DNA of 37,393 nucleotides from a virus. Taxonomy: Duplodnaviria; Caudoviricetes. The stretch spans positions 1-37,393 of the IMG/VR virus record IMGVR_UViG_3300012038_000026; one strand, 5' to 3'. Both the position numbers and the translations under genes were made by a program. Below the pieces are notes generated by a model, which did not search any database, was not told where the DNA came from, and worked only from the letters and a program-made list of their open reading frames with translations. This document shows positions 1,206 through 37,393 of this stretch, in pieces; the stretch's first letter is position 1, and each line of letters opens with the position of its first letter.

Positions 1206-1232
1206 TCTTACTACAACAACACGAGGTGAGGT

Positions 1233-2015
1233 ATGGAAATCAAGATAGAGAAAGCAGCAGACACGCCTAGTCGCTTGTCAATGATCCTATGGGGTGACAG
1301 CGGGTGTGGTAAGACTACACTAGCTGCAACAGCACCGGGTAAGAAGCTGTTTGTCGCCTTCGATCCAGATGGTGACATGAGCATTCGCAACATGCCTGAT
1401 TGGGATCGCATCAACCTGACGCATGAGAAGTCCAACGACATCGTCAAGGAAGGTACTAAGCCGGACCCGTATACTCTGTATACACTCATTGAGAAGTACG
1501 ACACCGTAGTTGTCGATAGCCTCACTAAGTTCAGCGAACATGCGCTTGTCTACGCAGTGATGATGAATGCTATGCGCAAGTCAACAATGGAGAACCCCGG
1601 TCTTGTCGGCTACGGTGCACGCAACATCTACGTCGGTGCGTTCGTGAGCAACATGATCCGCATCACCAACATGCTGAACAAGAACATCATCTTCATCACT
1701 CATGAACGTGCACCAGAGATGAACGCTGATGGCGCAGTTGTCGGTGTCAACATGATGCTCGGTGGTCAGCTGCCTAACGTCACTAGCAAGGACATCAGCG
1801 AAGTGTGGAACATGCGTGATCATGGTGGCAAACGCTACATCGCCATCCGTCCAGAACGCAATCGCTCACCGATGAAGTCGCGTATGTTCGACATGACAGC
1901 GGCTACCAGCTTTGAGTGGAAGTACAACGCCAACAAGCTTGAAGGTGACACCATCGCAAAGTGGTGGGAGCTATTCCAGCTTGGTCAATACACCAAACTT
2001 TCACTACCGAAATAG
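1233..2015 (+). CDS. Sak4-like / AAA_24 P-loop ATPase (single-strand annealing recombinase)
   Basis: Walker A WGDSGCGKTT, Walker B VVVDSLT, IFITHE, C-terminal MKSR; located between an exonuclease and an SSB gene; GAGGTGAGG RBS. Confidence 0.8.
   Translation: MEIKIEKAADTPSRLSMILWGDSGCGKTTLAATAPGKKLFVAFDPDGDMSIRNMPDWDRINLTHEKSNDIVKEGTKPDPYTLYTLIEKYDTVVVDSLTKFSEHALVYAVMMNAMRKSTMENPGLVGYGARNIYVGAFVSNMIRITNMLNKNIIFITHERAPEMNADGAVVGVNMMLGGQLPNVTSKDISEVWNMRDHGGKRYIAIRPERNRSPMKSRMFDMTAATSFEWKYNANKLEGDTIAKWWELFQLGQYTKLSLPK
1468..1484. repeat. Dispersed palindrome copy 2 (CGTATACTCTGTATACA, degenerate)
   Basis: Read directly; lies inside the ATPase gene. Confidence 0.5.
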
Positions 2016-3300: not shown

Positions 3301-4632
3301 ATGGACTTAGACGCAGAGCAACAGCGTGCAGTTGATCTATGCACGGACATGAGCAAGCGCCTCGTCGGTGTGACAGGTGAGGCGGGCACTGGCAAGACGA
3401 CGATCATCAAGCAGACATGCGACATACTTGTAGAGCATGACATTCCCTTCGCTGTAGCTGCACCCACTGGCAAAGCAGCACGTCGCATCAGAGAAGCAAC
3501 AGGCTACCCAGCAACTACAATTCACAAGCTGCTGGAGTTCAATCGTCCAGACTTTGACGATGAAACTGGTGAGCCTACTTCAGTCAGCGCACCAGCACGT
3601 ACAGCACGCAACCCACTCGATGTAGACGTTGTCATCATTGACGAGTACGCAATGGTGCCAACTGGCTTGCACCGTGATCTCATCGCGGCGCTTGGTAGAG
3701 GTGCTATGCGTGTGTTCGGTGATGTGCGTCAGCTACCACCCATTGAGAACGCTGACCTAGTAGACCCAACATCACCGTTCATGCGATGCTTGGAGATGCC
3801 ACACACCGTGACGCTTGACAACATCTACCGTCAGGCTGAAGGCAACGGCATCATTGAAGTAGCACGTCGTATCAACCGCGGTCAGTTCTTTGGCAGCAAC
3901 ACTGATGTGAAGGTGTTGCTAGGCGATGCTGTACTACACACCATGTACGGCATGCTTGAGAACAACAGCACAGACTGGACCCTACTCAGCAACCAGATCA
4001 TCTCACCCGCTAGGAAGTCAGACATAGGCACCATGCGGTTGAACAGCATACTACAGGCTCGCTTCAACAAAGACATGATCGGTCGCGTTGAGCTACCACG
4101 TAACAAGTGGGAGCAGAAGAACAAAGTCTTCGTTGCTGTAGGTGACAAGGTTGTATGCAACACCAACAGCTATGACCTGCGTGACTACGATCAGCGCTTC
4201 AGTGAGTACTACGACGGCGTCGGTGTGCTTAGCAGCTTCATCCCTTGTCCAGAGACAAAGCAAATGTTGAACGGGGAGGTAGGCAAGATCATCGACATAG
4301 ACGAGTTCGGTGTACTAGAGATTGACTTCGGTGATCGTGTCGTTGAACTGCCACCAGCGGTAGGTGAGTACAATGCACGCAAGCGCTACCACTTCACATA
4401 TGATCCGCGCAAGGTGATTGACCTTGCCTACGCACTCACTACGCACAAGTGTCAAGGCTCACAATATGACCATGTCGCATACGTGATGGCATCATGTGCG
4501 TTCTTCAACCTGAGTAGACCTAACTTCTACACCGGCATCACACGTGCTGCTAAGCATGCAACCATACTGACTGACCAACGCAGTATGGCTACGTCACTCA
4601 AATCAATGGGCTGGAAGAGGAAGAAGTCATGA
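3301..4632 (+). CDS. RecD/Dda-like superfamily 1B DNA helicase
   Basis: GEAGTGKTT, AAPTGKAARR, TIHKLL, IIDEYAM, GDVRQLPPI, IYRQ, LNGEVG, AYALTTHKCQGSQY, YTGITRA. Confidence 0.92.
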   Translation: MDLDAEQQRAVDLCTDMSKRLVGVTGEAGTGKTTIIKQTCDILVEHDIPFAVAAPTGKAARRIREATGYPATTIHKLLEFNRPDFDDETGEPTSVSAPARTARNPLDVDVVIIDEYAMVPTGLHRDLIAALGRGAMRVFGDVRQLPPIENADLVDPTSPFMRCLEMPHTVTLDNIYRQAEGNGIIEVARRINRGQFFGSNTDVKVLLGDAVLHTMYGMLENNSTDWTLLSNQIISPARKSDIGTMRLNSILQARFNKDMIGRVELPRNKWEQKNKVFVAVGDKVVCNTNSYDLRDYDQRFSEYYDGVGVLSSFIPCPETKQMLNGEVGKIIDIDEFGVLEIDFGDRVVELPPAVGEYNARKRYHFTYDPRKVIDLAYALTTHKCQGSQYDHVAYVMASCAFFNLSRPNFYTGITRAAKHATILTDQRSMATSLKSMGWKRKKS

Positions 4633-7163
4633 ACACCATCGCTGAATTGCGTGAACGGTTCTGTCGTCAAGCTGAACAAGCACAGCTATCCGTCGAGTGT
4701 GCAATGGGTGGCATAGTCAGTGGCACCATAGCGATCATCGCTGAAGCACCCGGCATCAATGAGGTAGCACAAGGCATGCCGCTTGTCGGCGGTGCAGGTA
4801 ACATCCTGTGGAAGTCACTGCGCACATACTGCCCAGAGGTGAAGCGCGGTGAGTGCTACATTACAAACGTCGTAAAGCGTCAAGTATCATTCGGTGTTGG
4901 GGACTCAGCAAACAGGAAGCCTGTCGGTAAGCATGAGCTTGTTGCGTGGCAGGAGCTATTGCTGTGGGAGTTGTCACATCTGCCGAACTTGCGACATGTA
5001 CTTCTGCTTGGCAACTATGCGATTGAAGCTGTTCTAAGCAAGAAGGGCATAACAAATTGGCGTGGCTCGGTACTCGATTGCAGCGTGGGCAATAAGCAAA
5101 TAACTGCAGTGTGCACATACAACCCTGCCTTCTGTGCGCGTGATCCCATGTCGCACATCATATTCGACATGGACATAGCTGACAAGCTACGCCCGGTTAT
5201 ACGCGGGGAGTACGCACCTCATGAAGTCGTCACACACATCAACCCCACGAAGCAGCAAGCAATTGACTACATTCGTCATTGTCAAGCCTCACGTGATCCT
5301 GTCGCCAGTGACATTGAAGTTGTCTCTAATGAAACAGCTTGCGTCGGGCTTGCACATTCACACACCGAAGCGATGTGCATCGCATTCAGAACTGAAGACG
5401 CGAATGTATACTCAGTATACGACGAGGCAGAGATACGTCGTCATCTCCAACGCTTATACGCTGCGCCTACTACGCGCATGGTGTGGCAGAATGGAGGCTT
5501 TGACATGGCGTGGCTTTGGTTCAAGGACCGCATTCTTTGTCGCCAAGCATACAGCGATACGATGCTTGGTCATCATGTGCTATACCCAACAATGCCCCAT
5601 GACCTCGGCTTCATTGTCAAGCAGTACACGATGCACCCCTTCTACAAGAATGAGAAGGATGAATGGCGGCATACTGGTGGCATCGACAACTTCTGGATAT
5701 ACAACGGTAAAGATTGTGCACTCACACTTGCGTCGAATGCTAGCATCGTTGCAGAGCTACGTGAACAGAAGCTAGACAAGTTCTACTTCGAGCACGTGAT
5801 GCGCTTGCAAGCACATCTAGTGTGGATGACAGTCGGTGGCATCCTCAACGACATGCCTATGCGTGAGCGCATGCTTGATGAGAACACACCGGGCAATCTG
5901 TATGATGACCTGCAGCACAAGCTGACTGCGTTCTATGAAGCTGTACAGGAGGCAACAGGTGACAAGCTGTACACTCCTAACCCCAACAGCCCGAAGCAGA
6001 TGGCTGACTTGTACTTCACTAAGCTGAAGCTAGTAGGCAGGGGCGTGAGTACTGACTACACCAACCGCGGATTGATGAGAAAGCACCCACGCACCACCGC
6101 TGCAGCACGCAAAGTCTTAGACGCCGTTGATGCTTACATCGAAGATGATAAGTTCTTCAGTGTCTATGCCAGTGCGCGCCCAGACGCTGACTCACGCATG
6201 CGATGTGACTACCGACAGACAGGTGTTCGCAACGCGCCGGGTCGCTTGTCTAGCGCGCAGACGTTGTGGGGTAGCGGCGGTAATCTGCAGAACATTCCCG
6301 ACCGTGCGAAGGAGATGTTCATCGCTGACCCTGACTGCTGCTTCATATATATCGACGGCAGTCAAGCTGAAGCACGTGTCGTCGGTTGGCGCTACAACAT
6401 CGGCACATGGATCAGTCAGTTCGAGCGTGCGCGGCTCGATGGCAGCTATGATTGCCACCGCGCTCTCGCCGCAGACATGTTCAATGTACCGTATGCAGAC
6501 GTTCCCGCCTTCGACCGTTACCCCTTGGACGAAGCTGCCGCGCTGCGTGATGGCATTGATTTTGTCGCTGACCAAGCGGGCAAGCCCACCATCAGGTACA
6601 TCGCTAAGAGGTGCAGACATGGTCTTAACTACCGCATGATGCCGGATAGACTAGCCCTAACCACAGGCTTGCCACTCTCTACAGCAAGTGAAGCATTTGT
6701 CAAGTATCACAAGCTCACGCCTGAAATCAAGGTAGGATGGCAAGCTGACCTCGACCGGGTGCGCAATGATCGCTCTATCTACAACGCCTATGGTAGGCGA
6801 TATGTTCAACTAATTCCGGTGACAGAGGAGAGTACTGAAAGCATCGTCGCTTTCTACCCACAATCCACGGTTGGTGACCACGTATGTCGCGTCATCTACA
6901 AAGCACATGACGATCCGAAGTGGCCCAAGGGTAAGGCACGTATAGCTTTGAATACACACGATGGGTTGATAGGCATCGCTCACAAGTCAGTGGCGAAGCA
7001 GGCTCTGCGTGTGCTAGTCAAGCACGCAGAGGCACCCATCGTGATTGAAGGCAGAGAGCTGATCATCCCTGCTGAGTGCGGCATCAGTGTAGCTGGTGCT
7101 GATGGAGTACACAGGTGGAGTACGATCAAGAAGATCAAACGACAGGAGGTGTTCCGTGGCTAA
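4629..7163 (+). CDS. polA: Family A DNA polymerase with N-terminal uracil-DNA glycosylase-like domain and 3'-5' exonuclease
   Basis: UDG-like AEAPG..E...PLVGGAG, YITNVVK, LLLGNYA, TYNPA; Exo I SDIE, Exo II QNGGFD, Exo III YNGKD; GRLSS, NLQNIP; motif A DGSQAEAR, motif B RYIAKRCRHGLNY, motif C THDG. Confidence 0.92.
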   Translation: MNTIAELRERFCRQAEQAQLSVECAMGGIVSGTIAIIAEAPGINEVAQGMPLVGGAGNILWKSLRTYCPEVKRGECYITNVVKRQVSFGVGDSANRKPVGKHELVAWQELLLWELSHLPNLRHVLLLGNYAIEAVLSKKGITNWRGSVLDCSVGNKQITAVCTYNPAFCARDPMSHIIFDMDIADKLRPVIRGEYAPHEVVTHINPTKQQAIDYIRHCQASRDPVASDIEVVSNETACVGLAHSHTEAMCIAFRTEDANVYSVYDEAEIRRHLQRLYAAPTTRMVWQNGGFDMAWLWFKDRILCRQAYSDTMLGHHVLYPTMPHDLGFIVKQYTMHPFYKNEKDEWRHTGGIDNFWIYNGKDCALTLASNASIVAELREQKLDKFYFEHVMRLQAHLVWMTVGGILNDMPMRERMLDENTPGNLYDDLQHKLTAFYEAVQEATGDKLYTPNPNSPKQMADLYFTKLKLVGRGVSTDYTNRGLMRKHPRTTAAARKVLDAVDAYIEDDKFFSVYASARPDADSRMRCDYRQTGVRNAPGRLSSAQTLWGSGGNLQNIPDRAKEMFIADPDCCFIYIDGSQAEARVVGWRYNIGTWISQFERARLDGSYDCHRALAADMFNVPYADVPAFDRYPLDEAAALRDGIDFVADQAGKPTIRYIAKRCRHGLNYRMMPDRLALTTGLPLSTASEAFVKYHKLTPEIKVGWQADLDRVRNDRSIYNAYGRRYVQLIPVTEESTESIVAFYPQSTVGDHVCRVIYKAHDDPKWPKGKARIALNTHDGLIGIAHKSVAKQALRVLVKHAEAPIVIEGRELIIPAECGISVAGADGVHRWSTIKKIKRQEVFRG
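5405..5421. repeat. Dispersed palindrome copy 4 (TGTATACTCAGTATACG)
   Basis: Read directly; lies inside the polymerase gene. Confidence 0.75.
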
Positions 7164-32116: not shown

Positions 32117-33710
32117 AGCGGTGTCTCCTTGGGTTCTCTGCTTCGTGATCGCGCTCTTGCCAAGTCATATAACTCGGTATGCGATCAGCAGCAGAAACGA
32201 TATACTTGCCAATGTCAGGCATATCACTGAGTAGGTAGCGTACGTTGTCCATTGCATGGTCGTTACGATCTACTGGTTTGTCTATGCGCTCACCTGATGT
32301 TGACTGCTGCCAGAAGTAGCCAGTTATCTCATCAGTCCACCAGTCAAGCTTAGAGTTAACGAATAAACGAGGTGAGCCAGCAGTACGCTGCACGGGATGC
32401 AGAAGGCGATGATTGATATTGAGATAACTGCCCACCTTAACAATGCCATTGGCGATGTCATTGTTACCTCGACGCATGTAGATGCCGTCTTCTTTGAACA
32501 TATCTGCTATAGTCTTACCAACGGTGCGCTTGTTGACTGTACGTCTACCGAAGATTGATGGATCGGCGATGCACTTGTGCATTTCGTCAGGCGTAAACTC
32601 CCACTTCTGTCTAATGCGCTTGATCTCATGTATTTGTTCATCAAGCGAGAACTCCTTTCGATAGAAGCCATCGCAGATGATGACGTGCTGTTCAGGAGAT
32701 ACAAATGCAAGCGTGTAGCATGAAGGCTGCGCTTGGCCGTAGTCATATGCTTCGATCCAGTTTGGCTGATAGTGTGTTTCGATGTATCCATCCAACAATG
32801 CACGGATGTTTCCTTCTTGCAGCAAGTGGACGCTATTGTCGAACTGTGGGTAGACAAGTCCTTCGTATGCAACCCATCTTCCAAGCAGAAAACGGTCACG
32901 TTGTTGACCACTGTACATTGTTTCCAATGTTTGGATAAAGTCGCCTCCTTCAGCTTCGTGTACATGTCGTAGCTCGTACGTGCTGCCTTCAACGACTTCA
33001 ATTAATAACTGCGGTTTGCCGTCTACGCCTAGCACAGGTCTGCGTTCTTTATCACGCACACAGATAAGGTCATCTGTTATTACGCCAGTGCGTTGGTACT
33101 GCTGCAAGGGACGGACTAGTTTAGTGTACACCCAATTGCCTGTTGGATTGCACGTGAGCATCATCCAACGTGGGCCTGTCACAGGCATTGCAGCATCTTC
33201 ACCTACATAGCGCGCTCTACCACGCAAGCGACCGAACAAGTCGAGAAAGTCCTTATGTGTTATCTCTGGGTCTTCTACTTGATCGACGATGACCCAATCG
33301 AATGTTGCGCTTAGAAGGTTGGAAGAACTGCTCTCCGTCTTCGTCCCCTGTTGCGCTATGTATCTGAAGTAGATCGAAGTCCCATTCTTGAGGTGACAGA
33401 TGTTGTCTCCGTTTTGTCCGACGCTGAAGGAGACGATCCACTTTGGGGGACACCACTTGATGAACTCCTTCCGAATAGTATCGTTGAGCTTTGGATAGGT
33501 AGATCGTGAAATAAGTCCAGTTGAACCGGGATACTTGTCTGCAAGTTGCAAGGCTTTGATGACGGCTGCTGTTGTCTTGCCATTGCCAAATCCTCCACCG
33601 TAGATTTGTAGCTTGGCAGTTGATTGCAGGAAGCGATCCTGCAAGCTGCCTTCCTTAAGCAGCAGTTCAGGTCGTTCAGCTACGTGTACAGTACGCGGAC
33701 GACTAGCCAT
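32109..33710 (-). CDS. terL: Terminase large subunit
   Basis: YGGGFGNGKT Walker A, WVIVDQVE Walker B, LTCNP motif, RFLLGRW..YEGLVY, AYDYG, IADPS, NDHAMDNVRY nuclease motif. Confidence 0.93.
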   Translation of the reverse strand: MASRPRTVHVAERPELLLKEGSLQDRFLQSTAKLQIYGGGFGNGKTTAAVIKALQLADKYPGSTGLISRSTYPKLNDTIRKEFIKWCPPKWIVSFSVGQNGDNICHLKNGTSIYFRYIAQQGTKTESSSSNLLSATFDWVIVDQVEDPEITHKDFLDLFGRLRGRARYVGEDAAMPVTGPRWMMLTCNPTGNWVYTKLVRPLQQYQRTGVITDDLICVRDKERRPVLGVDGKPQLLIEVVEGSTYELRHVHEAEGGDFIQTLETMYSGQQRDRFLLGRWVAYEGLVYPQFDNSVHLLQEGNIRALLDGYIETHYQPNWIEAYDYGQAQPSCYTLAFVSPEQHVIICDGFYRKEFSLDEQIHEIKRIRQKWEFTPDEMHKCIADPSIFGRRTVNKRTVGKTIADMFKEDGIYMRRGNNDIANGIVKVGSYLNINHRLLHPVQRTAGSPRLFVNSKLDWWTDEITGYFWQQSTSGERIDKPVDRNDHAMDNVRYLLSDMPDIGKYIVSAADRIPSYMTWQERDHEAENPRRHRYG

Positions 33711-33897
33711 TAGCGAACCACAACGGACGTGGGCGTCTCCATTCGCTACTATACGATGGTCGCACAGCACCACAGCGCCGACAGTACTTTACCTCTACAC
33801 CGCTGCCGTCACCTTCCAGAATGTCAGCAGCTACATGCGCGCCATCGTGGGGACAGCGTTGCATCCAACGATCAATTAACCAGTCAACGATCTGCAT
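33703..33897 (-). CDS. Small putative zinc-binding protein (64 aa)
   Basis: CPH...CRRCG; overlaps the terL start. Confidence 0.55.
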   Translation of the reverse strand: MQIVDWLIDRWMQRCPHDGAHVAADILEGDGSGVEVKYCRRCGAVRPSYSSEWRRPRPLWFANG

Positions 33898-33900
33898 TGT

Positions 33901-34035
33901 TCAACACCTGATAGCGTCAACACCGACGTTGCATGGTGATGCAGCGATGAAGATGGCGATCATGATCACTGCAATAGCCATGCCTACTACAGCACCTACA
34001 GCGATGACGCCTGCACCTACTACAAGTCGATCCAC
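33901..34035 (-). CDS. 44-aa membrane peptide; not in the ORF track
   Basis: Manual translation MDRLVVGAGVIAVGAVVGMAIAVIMIAIFIAASPCNVGVDAIRC from GTG; fills the gap; weak RBS. Confidence 0.45.
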   Translation of the reverse strand: MDRLVVGAGVIAVGAVVGMAIAVIMIAIFIAASPCNVGVDAIRC

Positions 34036-34223
34036 TTGTTGCCGCCGATGTTGCGATACACATCGCCTGTTGCGCTGTCTGCTCTCAACTCACTGGCGTA
34101 GCCTGCAGTGCTAGGTACACCTGCTGCGAACGTAGTAGGCACGCAGTAGCTAACATCAACAGGACCAGTAGGATGACCGTTAGCCTTGATGCCTTGACCG
34201 TCTTTGTTAGGTACGATAGCCAT
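34020..34223 (-). CDS. Hypothetical protein (67 aa)
   Basis: Start reassigned to ATG 34223 after AGGAG; MAIVPNKDGQG...KWIDL. Confidence 0.7.
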   Translation of the reverse strand: MAIVPNKDGQGIKANGHPTGPVDVSYCVPTTFAAGVPSTAGYASELRADSATGDVYRNIGGNKWIDL

Positions 34224-34233
34224 GCTACTTCTC

Positions 34234-34320
34234 CTACTTGATGAATATAAAGAACAACACAATGGTGATAGCTGCACCAGTGAGCGCACCACCGAAGAAC
34301 TCTACATCGAAGCGCATCAT
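34234..34320 (-). CDS. 28-aa single-TM peptide; not in the ORF track
   Basis: MMRFDVEFFGGALTGAAITIVLFFIFIK; ATGA overlap with the terS stop; fills the gap exactly. Confidence 0.5.
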   Translation of the reverse strand: MMRFDVEFFGGALTGAAITIVLFFIFIK

Positions 34321-34970
34321 TCTTTAATCACCTGAACGGTGATGTCTTTAGCATCAACGTCGATGGTAGGCATCTGCTTAGGCTTCGCCACTTCGCGTAT
34401 GTGACGAATAGTAAGACCGCCCTCTAATGAGTGACGATGCTCTAGCACCTGCTTAGGTGAGAAGCCTCCGCGGTCGAGCATGTTCATCAGGATGCGAGAC
34501 TTAGTAGCTGGGCGTGTATCTTCGTCTTCCAGCAAGTCCTCTAAGCCGTCGAGTGCTTTGCCACTCATAGCGTCGATGCGCTTCTGCACATCATCAGCGG
34601 TGAGAGCGGCGAGGTTGTCTTTGATGAGTAGATCAAGCTGCTGAAACAGCTGCAGCCCTTTGATCATGTCAATCTGGCTAAGCTTCAAGCCAGTAGCGTC
34701 TGCAATCTCAGCGTCGTTGATGCCTAGGGTGAAGTACAGCCACACTACACCAGCAGTAGTAATAGCTTTACTGTCAGCAGGGAGATCAACAAGACCACGA
34801 CGCACCACGCGATTGTTACGATCACGTCCCCTAACTGTAGCAGCTTGCTTTGTCTGTTTGAACTTGTCGGTCTGCTGTTGAATAACGGCTTCAGGCGACG
34901 TAGTCGGCAGTATTGCCTGACCCGTGCGTGTATCAATGATAAGACCATTTGCAAGTGGTAAGTCTGTCAT
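34317..34970 (-). CDS. terS: Putative terminase small subunit
   Basis: HTH-like GINDAEIADATGLKLSQI, helical ALDGLEDLL...MLDRGGF, beta-rich tail; upstream of terL. Confidence 0.6.
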   Translation of the reverse strand: MTDLPLANGLIIDTRTGQAILPTTSPEAVIQQQTDKFKQTKQAATVRGRDRNNRVVRRGLVDLPADSKAITTAGVVWLYFTLGINDAEIADATGLKLSQIDMIKGLQLFQQLDLLIKDNLAALTADDVQKRIDAMSGKALDGLEDLLEDEDTRPATKSRILMNMLDRGGFSPKQVLEHRHSLEGGLTIRHIREVAKPKQMPTIDVDAKDITVQVIKE

Positions 34971-35230
34971 CGCCCCTTGCCACTGCCTGACATCTTTCTG
35001 TACATCTCAGCAATCATCTGCTGCTGTTGATCACGTGGGTCTGTACTAACTCTGCCTCCTCCCTCTACACCGCCACCCTTCTGTGGTGTAGCTGGACCTT
35101 TGACAGTGCGGAATGACTTAGCACCTCTCACTTGCGGTGTAGGAGCCTGTGCACCTTTCATCACAGATGCACTGACAACGTCATCCATCTCAGGCATCTG
35201 TACTTGCTTCTTACGAAATGGCTGCGCCAT
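34967..35230 (-). CDS. Hypothetical protein (87 aa, low complexity)
   Basis: AGGAG RBS; ATGA overlap with the next gene. Confidence 0.65.
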   Translation of the reverse strand: MAQPFRKKQVQMPEMDDVVSASVMKGAQAPTPQVRGAKSFRTVKGPATPQKGGGVEGGGRVSTDPRDQQQQMIAEMYRKMSGSGKGR

Positions 35231-35280
35231 ATGTGTAGCTCCTGTGTAAGTGCGCCGGATGTGACATAAGCCGAGGGAGG

Positions 35281-35634
35281 TTACGCTTCATCATCATCCG
35301 GCGCTGCGACCTCTTCCTCCTGCTCGCCAGTGGGAGGAGTGCCGCCTACTTCATTCAGCATCTGTTGCACTTCATCAGGATCAGCTTCAATGCCGTACTG
35401 CTGCATGAGTTGTTGCAACTGTTCAGGGTCCATCTGCTGAAGCTGCTGGATCATCTGTGTAAGTTCACCACCACTGATGCCGCTCTGCTGTATCAGCTGC
35501 AAGATGCCCGGTGGCAATGATGTCAAGTCTACACCATTCAACTCAGCAGCGCTTGTACTAGCATCACCGCGCCCGACAGGCATATCACCGCCGACAGGCA
35601 TTTCAGCGAACTGGTCTTCAGGTGTAAGAGCCAT
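35281..35634 (-). CDS. Hypothetical acidic, Gln-rich protein (117 aa)
   Basis: AGGAG RBS overlapping the upstream stop. Confidence 0.7.
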   Translation of the reverse strand: MALTPEDQFAEMPVGGDMPVGRGDASTSAAELNGVDLTSLPPGILQLIQQSGISGGELTQMIQQLQQMDPEQLQQLMQQYGIEADPDEVQQMLNEVGGTPPTGEQEEEVAAPDDDEA

Positions 35635-35642
35635 GCTAACTC

Positions 35643-36065
35643 CTACTTGTTGACAGTGCCTAAGATGCCACCGCCACTGTTGCCGCTCTTCTCAACCGGG
35701 TAGCCGCTTGTCGCTACAGTAGGTGTAGCTGGATTAGGCATTGGCATGAAGTAAGGAGTCATCTGTGCTTGGAATGCTTCCTTCTCAAGGATGGTGGTAG
35801 CATGCAGCGGCACGATTGCATAAGGCACGATGGGTATCTTACCACCCATGTCCATGTTGTTGTGCTGCCGTGCTTGCACTTGAGCGACGGTGTACTCAGC
35901 ATTAGCACCGACACCGTTAGCAAGCGCACGGCCAATCTCACCGAATGCTTGACCACCATATGATGCAGTGAGACGTGCTACACTACGCATCGTGGAGTTG
36001 GCTTGCTTCGTGAGTGCGTGAGGCTCACCGAATGTGTGATCCCAACCGCCTGCCCATGCTGGCAT
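35643..36065 (-). CDS. Hypothetical protein, first gene of the late operon
   Basis: Start reassigned to ATG 36065 after AGGAG, downstream of the predicted promoter. Confidence 0.7.
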   Translation of the reverse strand: MPAWAGGWDHTFGEPHALTKQANSTMRSVARLTASYGGQAFGEIGRALANGVGANAEYTVAQVQARQHNNMDMGGKIPIVPYAIVPLHATTILEKEAFQAQMTPYFMPMPNPATPTVATSGYPVEKSGNSGGGILGTVNK

Positions 36066-36096
36066 GATGTACACTCCTGTTGAAAGCTGATCATCG

Positions 36097-36125
36097 CGCA
36101 TAGCACAAAGCTACAGATTTGTCAA
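36097..36125 (-). promoter_or_regulatory. Putative promoter of the structural operon
   Basis: Minus strand TTGACA-17 nt-TATGCG with TGC before the -10. Confidence 0.6.
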
Positions 36126-36136
36126 TGGCTTACAAG

Positions 36137-36153
36137 TATATACTCAGTATACA
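36137..36153. repeat. Dispersed palindrome copy 7 (TATATACTCAGTATACA)
   Basis: 11 nt upstream of the -35 of the structural-operon promoter. Confidence 0.8.
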
Positions 36154-36217
36154 GCAACGGTTGAAGTGACATCCGGCCCGAAGGGCCGGTCCTGAGCCTT
36201 CGTCCGATTGTAAGTGA

Positions 36218-36246
36218 CTTGCATCTACTAACACACATGCTATAAT
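36218..36246 (+). promoter_or_regulatory. Strong sigma70-type promoter (CTTGCRTCTACTA family)
   Basis: TTGCAT (36219-36224), 16 nt, TGC-TATAAT (36241-36246). Confidence 0.75.
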
Positions 36247-36251
36247 ACAAG

Positions 36252-36325
36252 TGTTGTGTTGTTGTAGACATGACATGGTAACTTACGCTCGTTGCAGCTT
36301 AACAACTGCAACGGGCGTCTTTTTA
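36252..36325 (+). ncRNA. Candidate ~70-nt small regulatory RNA
   Basis: Bounded by a consensus promoter and an intrinsic terminator; no RBS-led ORF inside; GU-rich single-stranded 5' seed. Confidence 0.6.
36285..36324 (+). terminator. Rho-independent terminator
   Basis: ACGCTCGTTGCAG / CTGCAACGGGCGT 13-bp stem (one G-U pair) followed by CTTTTT. Confidence 0.8.
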
Positions 36326-36830
36326 TATACAGCGAAGTTTATATGGCAGTACTTAAGTACTCAAACACGCAGCCGTGCAAGCGCTGCTATTAGCAATTTC
36401 ACTGCCACGGTGAGTGGGTGTCAGCGCTCCTACTCAGCTGGCTGCAGCAACAGCTACAGCCCTCTTTTCCTTTCGCACGGGGAGCACCAGTCCGCCGCTG
36501 CAGTTGCAACGCATTCGCATCACGATCGGCAGCGATGCGGTGCGCTGTGCTGTGCTGCTATCTACACAGCATCAATGTGGAATAGGTGCGCTTGGGCCGC
36601 TGCCTGCCTGCACATTGCAGTCGGCAGGTTAGGTTGTACTACATCACATTACACTTGTGCACTGCACCATCATGACATATCAATAATATGAATATGAGCG
36701 CTGATGCGATTGCAGCGCAAGGATGATGCTAGGTAGCGGCTAGAATACAGCGCATCAGTGAGCGGCGCTGCAAGAATGCGGGCACATTGAATTAGAACAC
36801 AACGTGCACGAGTTATGGAATATCTAGCGC

Positions 36831-36839
36831 TTATCCACA
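36831..36839 (+). promoter_or_regulatory. DnaA box (TTATCCACA)
   Basis: Exact match to the R1-type consensus in the non-coding region. Confidence 0.45.
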
Positions 36840-37046
36840 GGACAGGTTGTATATCTGCCGCATGCAATTCGATGCATGGACGGCGGCGCATCGACCACCA
36901 CGCAAGCTAGCGACTGCTAGGCTATATGTGCCGCATGCGCTGGCGGCATGCGGCGCTGTTTGAGGCTTGTTTAGCTGGCAGCTATATGGGCAAGTGCTTG
37001 TTTTACATAGGCTATTTATGTGCGGTGTGTAGTAGCTATAGCCTGA

Positions 37047-37063
37047 TGTATACTGAGTATATA
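37047..37063. repeat. Dispersed palindrome copy 8 (TGTATACTGAGTATATA)
   Basis: Non-coding region, ~58 nt upstream of the 37121 promoter. Confidence 0.8.
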
Positions 37064-37086
37064 GCTGCATATGGTGTGAACATGAG

Positions 37087-37095
37087 TTATTCACA
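37087..37095 (+). promoter_or_regulatory. DnaA box (TTATTCACA)
   Basis: Matches TTWTNCACA; same orientation as the 36831 box. Confidence 0.4.
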
Positions 37096-37120
37096 GCTAG
37101 ATATAGTATGAAATACAGCG

Positions 37121-37149
37121 CTTGCATCTACTATTGCAGGGTTTAAGAT
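37121..37149 (+). promoter_or_regulatory. Sigma70-type promoter (CTTGCRTCTACTA family), probable early promoter
   Basis: TTGCAT (37122-37127), 16 nt, TAAGAT (37144-37149). Confidence 0.6.
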
Positions 37150-37345
37150 GTGCTTAGTTGGATGGACTTTCGGCATGAGCACCTGCGTTGCAGGCAGCGC
37201 CCGGCGGTTTCACCGATCAGCGTGCCGTCAGCTTAAGGATGGTCGCGCTAGCCTACGCCATGCAGGCGAAACATGCATGGGGTCCATGAGACTTTCTACC
37301 GTAGCCAATGCGGAACATTGGTAATTCCATGTAAGGACTACAACA

Positions 37346-37393
37346 ATGAACACGACCAACAACACCGCGCCCGCCACCACCGCTACGTTCAAC
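37346..37393 (+). CDS. 5' end of a hypothetical protein truncated by the window edge
   Basis: TAAGGA RBS, ATG 37346, MNTTNNTAPATTATFN... Confidence 0.6.
   Translation, partial: MNTTNNTAPATTATFN

What the first reader, a model, noticed from the sequence alone, without database searches (positions are those of the whole stretch)
36218..36325. Self-contained phage sRNA with a GU-rich seed antisense to phage translation-initiation regions
Seen: a consensus promoter and a clean intrinsic terminator delimit ~70 nt. Its GTGTTGTTGTAG (36256-36267) is the exact 12-nt complement of CTACAACAACAC (1211-1222), just before the Sak4 RBS. Positions 36251-36278 pair in three blocks (CCATGT 37327-37332, CTACAACAA 37338-37346, AACAC 37349-37353) around the RBS and start codon of the 37346 gene. 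Shorter CA-rich matches precede the RBSs at 2996 and 27535. From memory, TGTTGTGTTGTTGT (36252-36265) also matches the R1 seed of enterobacterial GcvB, which represses CA-rich translational enhancers. Inference: a trans-acting sRNA that shuts off early genes and possibly host mRNAs (GcvB-like), forming a switch at the early/late divergence.
Basis: partly seen in the sequence, partly recalled or inferred. Interest (0 to 1): 0.85.

Follow-up and report, generated by a model that had tools for sequence, protein, structure and literature searches.

The report
Phage sRNA co-evolving with early genes
An uncultured phage and its relatives carry a short promoter-to-terminator unit whose front end changes in step with the ribosome-landing sites of three of their own early genes, so it likely makes a small RNA that would switch those genes off, although no transcript or repression has been observed.

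Summary
Window 36219-36325 is a promoter (TTGCAT, extended -10 TATAAT), about 72 nt and an intrinsic terminator; the complements at 1211-1222 and 37327-37353 and the 14-nt identity with E. coli GcvB are real. The same unit sits at the same place in 26 distinct versions across this uncultured podovirus-like clade. Its 5' part varies, and changes in step with the start region of the first early gene (the 37346 gene, a 260-330 aa protein of unknown family): longest perfect complement 9.9 nt in own pairs against 6.2 nt in swapped pairs, 0 of 20,000 permutations. Of 38 gene families tested, only two more co-vary (a ~150-aa protein and a ~414-aa GHKL-ATPase-like protein), both early. Sak4 pairing is confined to the window's lineage; the 2996 and 27535 matches are unsupported. 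Best reading: a trans-acting antisense sRNA that dampens the phage's own earliest genes, working like P1 c4 with GcvB-style enhancer masking, but a member of neither family. GcvB mimicry is probably convergence on ACA-rich leaders. No transcript, host or repression shown; the unit is lost in at least three lineages.

The parts
36219..36246 (+). Promoter of the unit: TTGCAT, 16-nt spacer, extended -10 (TG-C-TATAAT); clade-typical early promoter motif
   Evidence: Sequence; motif precedes 26 of 26 distinct syntenic units; not listed by the generic scanner; activity inferred
36251..36325 (+). Predicted small RNA, about 72-75 nt (start site inferred near 36251-36253)
   Evidence: Fold z -5.7, 0 of 200 shuffles; syntenic homologues; no transcript data
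36251..36284 (+). Variable 5' pairing region (GU-rich seed, CATGG block, then an AACTT linker); folds into a GU-rich hairpin with loop 36261-36266 in the window
   Evidence: Co-variation with targets; fold
36285..36325 (+). Intrinsic terminator: 13-bp stem, 8-nt loop, T-run
   Evidence: 8 of 8 consensus pairs have double-sided changes in 19 aligned units (on a poor sequence-only alignment)
37122..37149 (+). Predicted promoter of gene 1 (same motif), so gene 1 has its own transcript
   Evidence: a match 78-256 nt upstream of gene 1 in 21 of 22 records examined
37327..37353 (+). Main target: ribosome-binding site and start codon of gene 1
   Evidence: ranks 1 of 29 window start regions in accessibility-aware binding, -11.4 kcal/mol
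37346..37393 (+). First 16 codons of gene 1, first early gene, family of unknown function (cut by the contig end)
   Evidence: P0016 (301 aa), a hit of the gene 1 profile, begins with exactly these 16 residues
1178..1205 (+). Predicted promoter of the Sak4 gene; puts the 12-nt site at the very 5' end of the mRNA
   Evidence: Sequence; motif conserved upstream of Sak4 in 14 of 15 relatives printed
1211..1222 (+). Lineage-specific second target: 12-nt perfect complement in the Sak4 leader, just before the Shine-Dalgarno
   Evidence: -9.7 kcal/mol from the predicted start; at most 7 nt in 11 other records holding both parts
1233..2015 (+). Sak4-like ssDNA annealing protein
   Evidence: phrog_124, E 1.2e-20

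Best explanation
The unit at 36219-36325 likely makes a ~72-nt small RNA whose 5' part, which changes in step with the start regions of three early gene families across related phages, would pair in trans with those mRNAs and block their translation. Shown: the promoter-like motif, terminator, synteny, complementarity and its co-variation. Inferred: host sigma-70-type polymerase transcribes the RNA and the early genes from the same promoter class right after entry; the hairpin-protected RNA accumulates and then shuts down gene 1 (always), the ~150-aa and ~414-aa GHKL-like genes (often) and Sak4 (window's lineage), acting as a delayed brake on the earliest proteins. It works in two ways seen in different relatives: covering the Shine-Dalgarno/start codon (window, L040, L070, L078, L080, L084, L090, L091, L095, L098, L105, L115) or covering the ACA-rich stretch just upstream (L045, L050, L052, L054, L067, L068, L075, L081, L103), as GcvB does. 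Hfq dependence is plausible from the anatomy (5' seed, U-rich linker, hairpin, U tail; recalled) but untested.
For: Unit conserved and syntenic: 27 distinct promoter-terminator matches in 139 sources, 26 at the same site 140-210 nt from the 35643-36101 homologue. Swap test on 21 records: duplex energy own -21.0 vs swapped -14.8 kcal/mol, 0 of 100,000 permutations; longest perfect complement own 9.9 vs cross-group 6.2 nt, 9 nt or more in 17 of 21 own and 44 of 400 cross pairs, 0 of 20,000 permutations in 20 of 20 draws of 13 seed-group representatives; with folding costs, own -14.3 vs cross -7.8, 0 of 10,000 in 20 of 20 draws. Blind test with automatic starts over 38 families: gene 1 0 of 10,000, ~150-aa p 0.0008, ~414-aa p 0.0016, the other 35 at 0.06 or more; exact p 0.0007-0.0013 and 0.0014-0.0016. 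Seeds differ even inside the window's own clade (SH-aLRT 97) and each matches its own target. One further pair, L171, gives 12 nt. In four unit-less records the gene 1 start region has 0-1 ACA upstream and folds on itself (-10.5 to -12.5), stronger than in 19 of 21 unit-bearing records. ACA motifs are translation enhancers silenced by GcvB (PMC3879156, passages read).
Against: The window's own seed is predicted to be folded away in a hairpin (pairing probability about 0.9-1.0), and the window's RNA binds two other phages' gene 1 starts better than its own in the model (rank 3). The unit is absent in at least three lineages that keep gene 1, with no substitute antisense element found, so it is dispensable. 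Unit-less G010 keeps an 11-nt site for a sister's seed in its ~150-aa leader and unit-less G013 has an 11-nt match to another seed type. Secondary targets are patchy (414-aa: 10 nt or more in 6 of 8; 150-aa: 8 nt or more in 6 of 11) and the 414-aa family just misses a Bonferroni bar of 0.0013. Energy was no better than shuffles for L070 (652 of 1000) and weak for L095 and L115. Seed groups and the 21 gene 1 starts were set by me after seeing some matches; one search is the blind check. The timing role is pure inference: functions of the targets are unknown.
Confidence: 0.7

Rival explanations
1. Same RNA and pairing, but its main job is RNA-based superinfection exclusion or immunity: RNA made by the resident phage silences gene 1 of an incoming relative with a matching leader, and escape plus compensation drives the fast seed-target turnover, as c4 does for P1/P7 heteroimmunity.
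For: At least 13 seed types with matched targets at varying positions, differing even between close sisters, is more turnover than a simple timer needs; cross-group pairing is mostly weak. c4 precedent (PMC12197685, passage).
Against: No integrase or repressor Pfam hit among 94 ORFs of two complete genomes, so no evident lysogenic state; exclusion would be limited to lytic or carrier infection. Many ORFs have no hit, so this is weak. Not exclusive of the best explanation.
Confidence: 0.15
2. GcvB mimic: the RNA chiefly silences host mRNAs with ACA-rich enhancers (amino-acid transporters), and phage targets are incidental.
For: 14-nt identity of the window's seed with GcvB 71-84; this is the commonest seed type (7 of 24 distinct 5' parts share 10 nt or more); 4 long forms share a further 10 nt with GcvB 111-120.
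Against: Other seed types share only 5-9 nt with GcvB; seeds follow each phage's own leaders, which a fixed host regulon would not cause; no RF00022 match; the second shared stretch is the anti-start-codon block here and part of a hairpin before a T-run in GcvB.
Confidence: 0.07
3. The pairing activates rather than represses translation, by opening inhibitory structure in the leaders.
For: In 9 of 21 records the duplex ends just upstream of, or only reaches into, the Shine-Dalgarno; the L068 start region is strongly self-folded (-21.9).
Against: In 12 of 21 records, including the window, the duplex covers the Shine-Dalgarno/start-codon region; most unit-bearing start regions are weakly folded.
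Confidence: 0.04
4. No regulatory RNA: a terminator/insulator between the divergent arms, with complementarity from shared GU/CA composition, DNA-level inverted repeats, or cis pairing in a read-through transcript.
For: Phage leaders are CA-rich, so cross pairs reach 9 nt in 44 of 400 cases; the unit is dispensable.
Against: Swap and shuffle controls keep composition yet fail; sites fall on start regions of the same three families; two of them lie 4-9 kb away behind terminators and gene 1 has its own promoter, which excludes cis pairing.
Confidence: 0.04

Closest known systems
c4 antisense RNA of phages P1 and P7 (Rfam RF01695); relatives P4 CI and N15 CA RNAs (recalled)
   Same: Phage-encoded small RNA pairing with short sites around the ribosome-binding site of a downstream phage gene; sequence differences give phage specificity (PMC12197685, passage).
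   Different: c4 targets one antirepressor mRNA in a temperate phage through loops of a processed RNA; this unit has its own promoter and terminator, a 5' seed, up to three or four targets kilobases apart, no Rfam match, and no evident lysogeny genes.
GcvB (Rfam RF00022)
   Same: 14 identical nucleotides in the GU-rich stretch; pairing with ACA-rich enhancers next to the Shine-Dalgarno in some relatives (PMC3879156, passages).
   Different: 70-115 nt vs 206 nt; no model match; seed not conserved across the clade; targets are phage genes.
SviR of Vibrio PLE satellites
   Same: Trans-acting, multi-target sRNA of a mobile element that lowers translation of phage mRNAs (10.1101/2022.04.08.487710, abstract and introduction read).
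   Different: SviR is strongly conserved and acts across two genomes; here the seed diversifies with the phage's own targets.
P22 sar, lambda OOP and aQ, 24B_1, VpdS, PreS, StxS
   Same: Phage small RNAs that tune phage development (PMC12197685, parts 1-2 of 6 and passages read).
   Different: sar, OOP and aQ are cis-antisense (cis status of sar and OOP recalled); VpdS, PreS and StxS act largely on host RNAs or toxin mRNA; all come from temperate phages.

Membership tests
GcvB (RF00022) | Match to the Rfam covariance model | tested here: not met
   0 of 1 record; the E. coli control rang; no GcvB hit at E up to 5 in 33000-37393
GcvB (RF00022) | GU-rich seed sequence (label R1 recalled) | tested here: met
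   14 nt identical to positions 71-84, but 10 nt or more in only 7 of 24 distinct homologous 5' parts
GcvB (RF00022) | About 200 nt, next to gcvA | tested here: not met
   Unit is about 72 nt between phage genes; E. coli arrangement seen
GcvB (RF00022) | Hfq-dependent repression of amino-acid transport mRNAs | not testable with these tools
   Host unknown
c4 antisense RNA (RF01695) | Match to the Rfam model | tested here: inconclusive
   No hit in the window region, in 16 relatives' loci or in 0 of 5 records, but no control genome rang
c4 antisense RNA (RF01695) | Target is an antirepressor mRNA in an immunity region | tested here: inconclusive
   Gene 1 has no Pfam or PHROG match and no clear fold match; no repressor or integrase hit in 94 ORFs
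c4 antisense RNA (RF01695) | Short complementary sites at the target's ribosome-binding region that differ between phages | tested here: met
Trans-encoded base-pairing sRNA (general class) | Own promoter and intrinsic terminator in an intergenic region | tested here: met
   Sequence motifs only
Trans-encoded base-pairing sRNA (general class) | Short seed complementary to several distant mRNAs, kept under selection | tested here: met
   Three co-varying families of 38
Trans-encoded base-pairing sRNA (general class) | Discrete transcript and measured regulation | not testable with these tools
   No RNA holder covering the unit
Type I toxin-antitoxin | Single small hydrophobic toxin (under about 60 aa; recalled) as target | tested here: not met
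   Gene 1 is a 260-330 aa, mostly helical, lysine/alanine-rich protein and there are several targets

The most novel reading that the evidence does not exclude
A lytic phage clade carries a reprogrammable, multi-target RNA immunity module: the sRNA seed and the start sites of its first genes diversify together into mutually incompatible types, so each phage both times its own early programme and shuts out relatives of its seed type by RNA alone, with an ancestral GcvB-like seed that could also silence host ACA-enhancer mRNAs.
Probability: 0.2. Interest if true: 0.88.

Novelty: new variant of a known kind. Interest (0 to 1): 0.7.

Why it matters
Described phage sRNAs come mostly from temperate phages and are either cis-antisense, single-target, or aimed at host RNAs. 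Here an apparently lytic clade shows a multi-target trans sRNA with a natural series of about 13 matched seed-target types, the kind of compensatory evidence usually made by mutagenesis. It gives a ready allele series for testing how seeds and targets co-evolve, whether RNA can time early gene shut-off or exclude related phages, and it flags three uncharacterised early proteins as ones the phage needs to hold down. Orthogonal seed-leader pairs could also serve as translational switches.

Tried and rejected
Pattern scan of viral contigs for -10 plus seed: 14 hits, all unrelated AT-rich contexts. No DNA match in cultured phages or E. coli genomes; portal no match; capsid, terminase and polymerase under 30% identity to cultured phages of mixed hosts; one MAG contig at 47%: host not identified. 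Rfam: 3 sub-threshold hits in 33000-37393, 0 in 16 loci. RNA data: no RNA holder listed; the one small-share run did not cover the unit, uninformative. Gene 1 function: no Pfam/PHROG hit, only unnamed homologues (53 representatives), model pLDDT 76 without a clear fold match (best Z 6.2 on a helical piece). The 414-aa protein had no PDB sequence match. Profile scans for gene 1 loci could not run; whole records of the new metagenome loci are not held; the metagenome scan mostly returned the same phages, adding one new pair (L171) and three variants without a gene 1 start. ORFs overlapping the unit (36251-36691 +, 36130-36276 -) have no PHROG hit and were not pursued. Sak4 as a clade-wide target rejected: p 0.004-0.048 with the window, 0.026-0.24 without, never above 7 nt elsewhere. 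No earlier notes on this genome or look-alikes. Not found in print by six relevant searches; the supplementary tables of PMC10690425 (10,006 viral candidate RNAs from IMG/VR) were not examined and may hold this hairpin as an unnamed candidate.

Full report
Setting. The window is a 37,393-nt IMG/VR virus record, 84% complete: a podovirus-like dsDNA phage with Sak4, Dda-like helicase and DNA polymerase on the + strand and terminase, portal, capsid and tail genes on the - strand. Complete relatives are 44-45 kb, so about 7 kb of early genes between 37393 and 1 are missing. No cultured relative is close and the host is unknown. Among 94 ORFs of two complete relatives none hit an integrase or repressor family in Pfam, which suggests a lytic phage; most ORFs have no hit, and one 95-aa ORF of G002 has a weak PHROG regulator hit.

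Observation. All quoted coordinates are right. The -35 is TTGCAT, so the generic scan misses the promoter while finding the terminator at 36285-36318. The 76-nt stretch folds at -31.6 kcal/mol, z -5.7, into a GU-rich 5' hairpin and the terminator. The 12-nt Sak4 complement is unusual for this composition (5 of 2000 shuffles over 29 start regions). The GcvB recollection is correct: 14 nt identical to positions 71-84.

Conservation. Terminase and Sak4 searches gave 80 and 18 loci; 40 stretches of whole records were added. A promoter-plus-terminator pattern over the window and 138 loci found 27 distinct matches: 26 lie 140-210 nt from the homologue of the 35643-36101 gene on the opposite strand (positions compared); one is the terminator behind gene 1. 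L041, L099 and L189 carry units that the pattern missed. The hairpins differ in sequence but keep pairing (8 of 8 consensus pairs with double-sided changes, on a poor alignment of 19 short forms; units were selected for having a hairpin, so this is weak alone). The unit is cleanly absent in L044, L074, L057/L058, L059/L060 and L063/L064/L066/L087, at least three places on the terminase tree (quick tree).

Main target. The first gene downstream (589-1099 nt away) is a 260-330 aa family; the window's 16 codons at 37346 equal the start of family member P0016. In 21 records holding both parts (20 of the 26 units; L038, L072, L082, L089, L094 and L116 lacked a gene 1 start in the locus), each 5' part matches its own gene 1 start: for example CTTGTGATAG with CTATCACAAG (L050), GTGGTAGTCC with GGACTACCAC (L115), TGCTTGTGTTGT with ACAACACAAGCA (L103), TGACATGGTAG with CTACCATGTCA (L078), ATGTTGCGTTG with CAACGCAACAT (L067). 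Own pairs beat swapped pairs by duplex energy (-21.0 vs -14.8, 0 of 100,000), by longest perfect complement (9.9 vs 6.2 nt; 0 of 20,000 in 20 of 20 draws of one record per 13 seed groups; with G-U allowed 0-2 of 20,000) and with folding costs included (-14.3 vs -7.8; 0 of 10,000 in 20 of 20 draws). Shuffled seeds of the same composition matched the energy in at most 13 of 1000 for 18 of 21 records; L070 (652), L095 (66) and L115 (33) were the exceptions, yet their perfect complements of 10-11 nt were reached in 2-3 of 1000. Shared ancestry cannot create complementarity between different seed types, and seeds differ within the window's own clade. I chose the groups and starts after seeing some matches, so the blind test below matters.

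Other targets. With automatic starts, 38 orthologous families were tested the same way. Gene 1 passed (0 of 10,000, despite 3 of 11 miscalled starts), as did a ~150-aa early protein (p 0.0008) and a ~414-aa early protein (p 0.0016; phrog_8203; GHKL-ATPase-like by Atlas neighbours with MPN635_N and HATPase_c_3, a lead). Exact permutations gave 0.0007-0.0013 and 0.0014-0.0016 against a Bonferroni bar of 0.0013. For the 414-aa gene the first codons themselves change to fit the seed (L054, L098, L105). The remaining 35 families, including all structural genes and the 3007 and 27525 genes, gave 0.06 or more. Sak4 is a 12-nt match in the window only among 12 records, with 11 and 9 nt matches between separate contigs of related phages (L084 with L006, L040 with L003; L040 with L007 only 5; linkage not shown).

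Against. The window's seed is predicted paired in a hairpin, leaving a 6-nt loop to nucleate, and its RNA ranks its own gene 1 start third among other groups' starts, although first among the 29 window starts. The unit is dispensable, with no substitute found in three unit-less records. In four unit-less records the gene 1 start is self-folded and ACA-poor, which fits replacement by cis control, but G010 and G013 retain 11-nt matches to seeds of other phages. Nothing shows transcription.

Mechanism. Most likely a delayed translational brake: RNA and targets share a promoter class, the RNA accumulates, then masks the Shine-Dalgarno/start codon (12 of 21 records) or the ACA-rich stretch upstream (9 of 21). 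The second mode is how GcvB silences ACA enhancers (PMC3879156, abstract and passages), which explains the GcvB likeness as convergence: only 7 of 24 distinct 5' parts share 10 nt or more with that stretch. The rapid matched turnover also fits RNA-based exclusion of relatives, as c4 underlies P1/P7 heteroimmunity (PMC12197685); the two roles are compatible. Repression, timing, Hfq use and exclusion are inferred. Gene 1's function is unknown.

Known systems and novelty. It works like c4 and GcvB but belongs to neither: no Rfam match (the c4 search lacked a ringing control). Papers seen: PMC12197685 parts 1-2 of 6 and passages; SviR preprint abstract and introduction; PMC3879156, PMC8201110 and PMC10690425 passages; others as search listings only. 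Searches listed no description of this clade's RNA; supplements of PMC10690425 were not read. Eight unchecked notes of this scan describe similar anti-start-site RNAs in other phages, none in this clade by sequence; they are not evidence, but suggest a recurrent class and lower the uniqueness of this case. Verdict: real feature, new variant of a known kind, with unusually strong comparative support; interest 0.7.

Noticed in passing
window 783, 1470, 2976, 5407, 13323, 18093, 27542, 36139, 37049: Palindrome TATAC-N3-GTATA, 9 copies against 0.02 expected; 10 to 23 copies in each of four relatives, often just before early ribosome-binding sites, right after the gene 1 stop codon, beside the late promoter, and inside coding sequence at conserved places. 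Likely a binding site for a phage protein (or a small RNA hairpin); binder unknown.
   Followed up: partly
window 36172-36190: GC hairpin CCGGCCCGAAGGGCCGG between the divergent promoters, conserved in most relatives including unit-less ones, with compensated variants.
   Followed up: partly
window 36126-36098, - strand: Divergent promoter-like site (TTGACA, 17 nt, TG-C-TATGCG) ahead of the 35643-36101 gene and the packaging/structural arm; its -35 is conserved in the relatives printed.
   Followed up: no
L070, L072, L077, L095, L104, L116, L200: Long forms of the RNA (100-115 nt) with an extra 5' hairpin; the pairing block sits in a second weak hairpin whose loop faces the start codon.
   Followed up: partly
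L084:4012-4091, L115:1630-1729: Two-seed forms: L084 has a 12-nt complement upstream of the Shine-Dalgarno and a 10-nt one over the start codon of the same gene.
   Followed up: partly
terminator loops of most units: Apical sub-hairpin with a recurring CTCA(C/T)A motif, absent in the window's version; possible protein or second RNA contact.
   Followed up: no
L006:1100-1160: The closest relative in the Sak4 region has a 13-nt complement to the window's seed in its ~150-aa gene leader and an 11-nt complement to the L084 seed in its Sak4 leader; its own unit is not on that contig.
   Followed up: partly
window 36330-37120: About 800 nt without a credible gene between the unit and the gene 1 promoter, with recurring GGGGCTTG and GGGGGA motifs in relatives; many contigs end near here, so it may hold the origin or genome ends (inference).
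   Followed up: no
window 4629-7163: Family A DNA polymerase; the relatives' orthologues carry an N-terminal uracil-DNA-glycosylase-superfamily domain.
   Followed up: no
L132:9873-10682: Early gene with signal-peptide-like start and weak PEP-CTERM hit (E 0.027) in 2 records; hints at a Gram-negative host.
   Followed up: no
L035 (G003 terminase): Two stop codons inside the terminase match; frameshift or assembly error, not examined.
   Followed up: no
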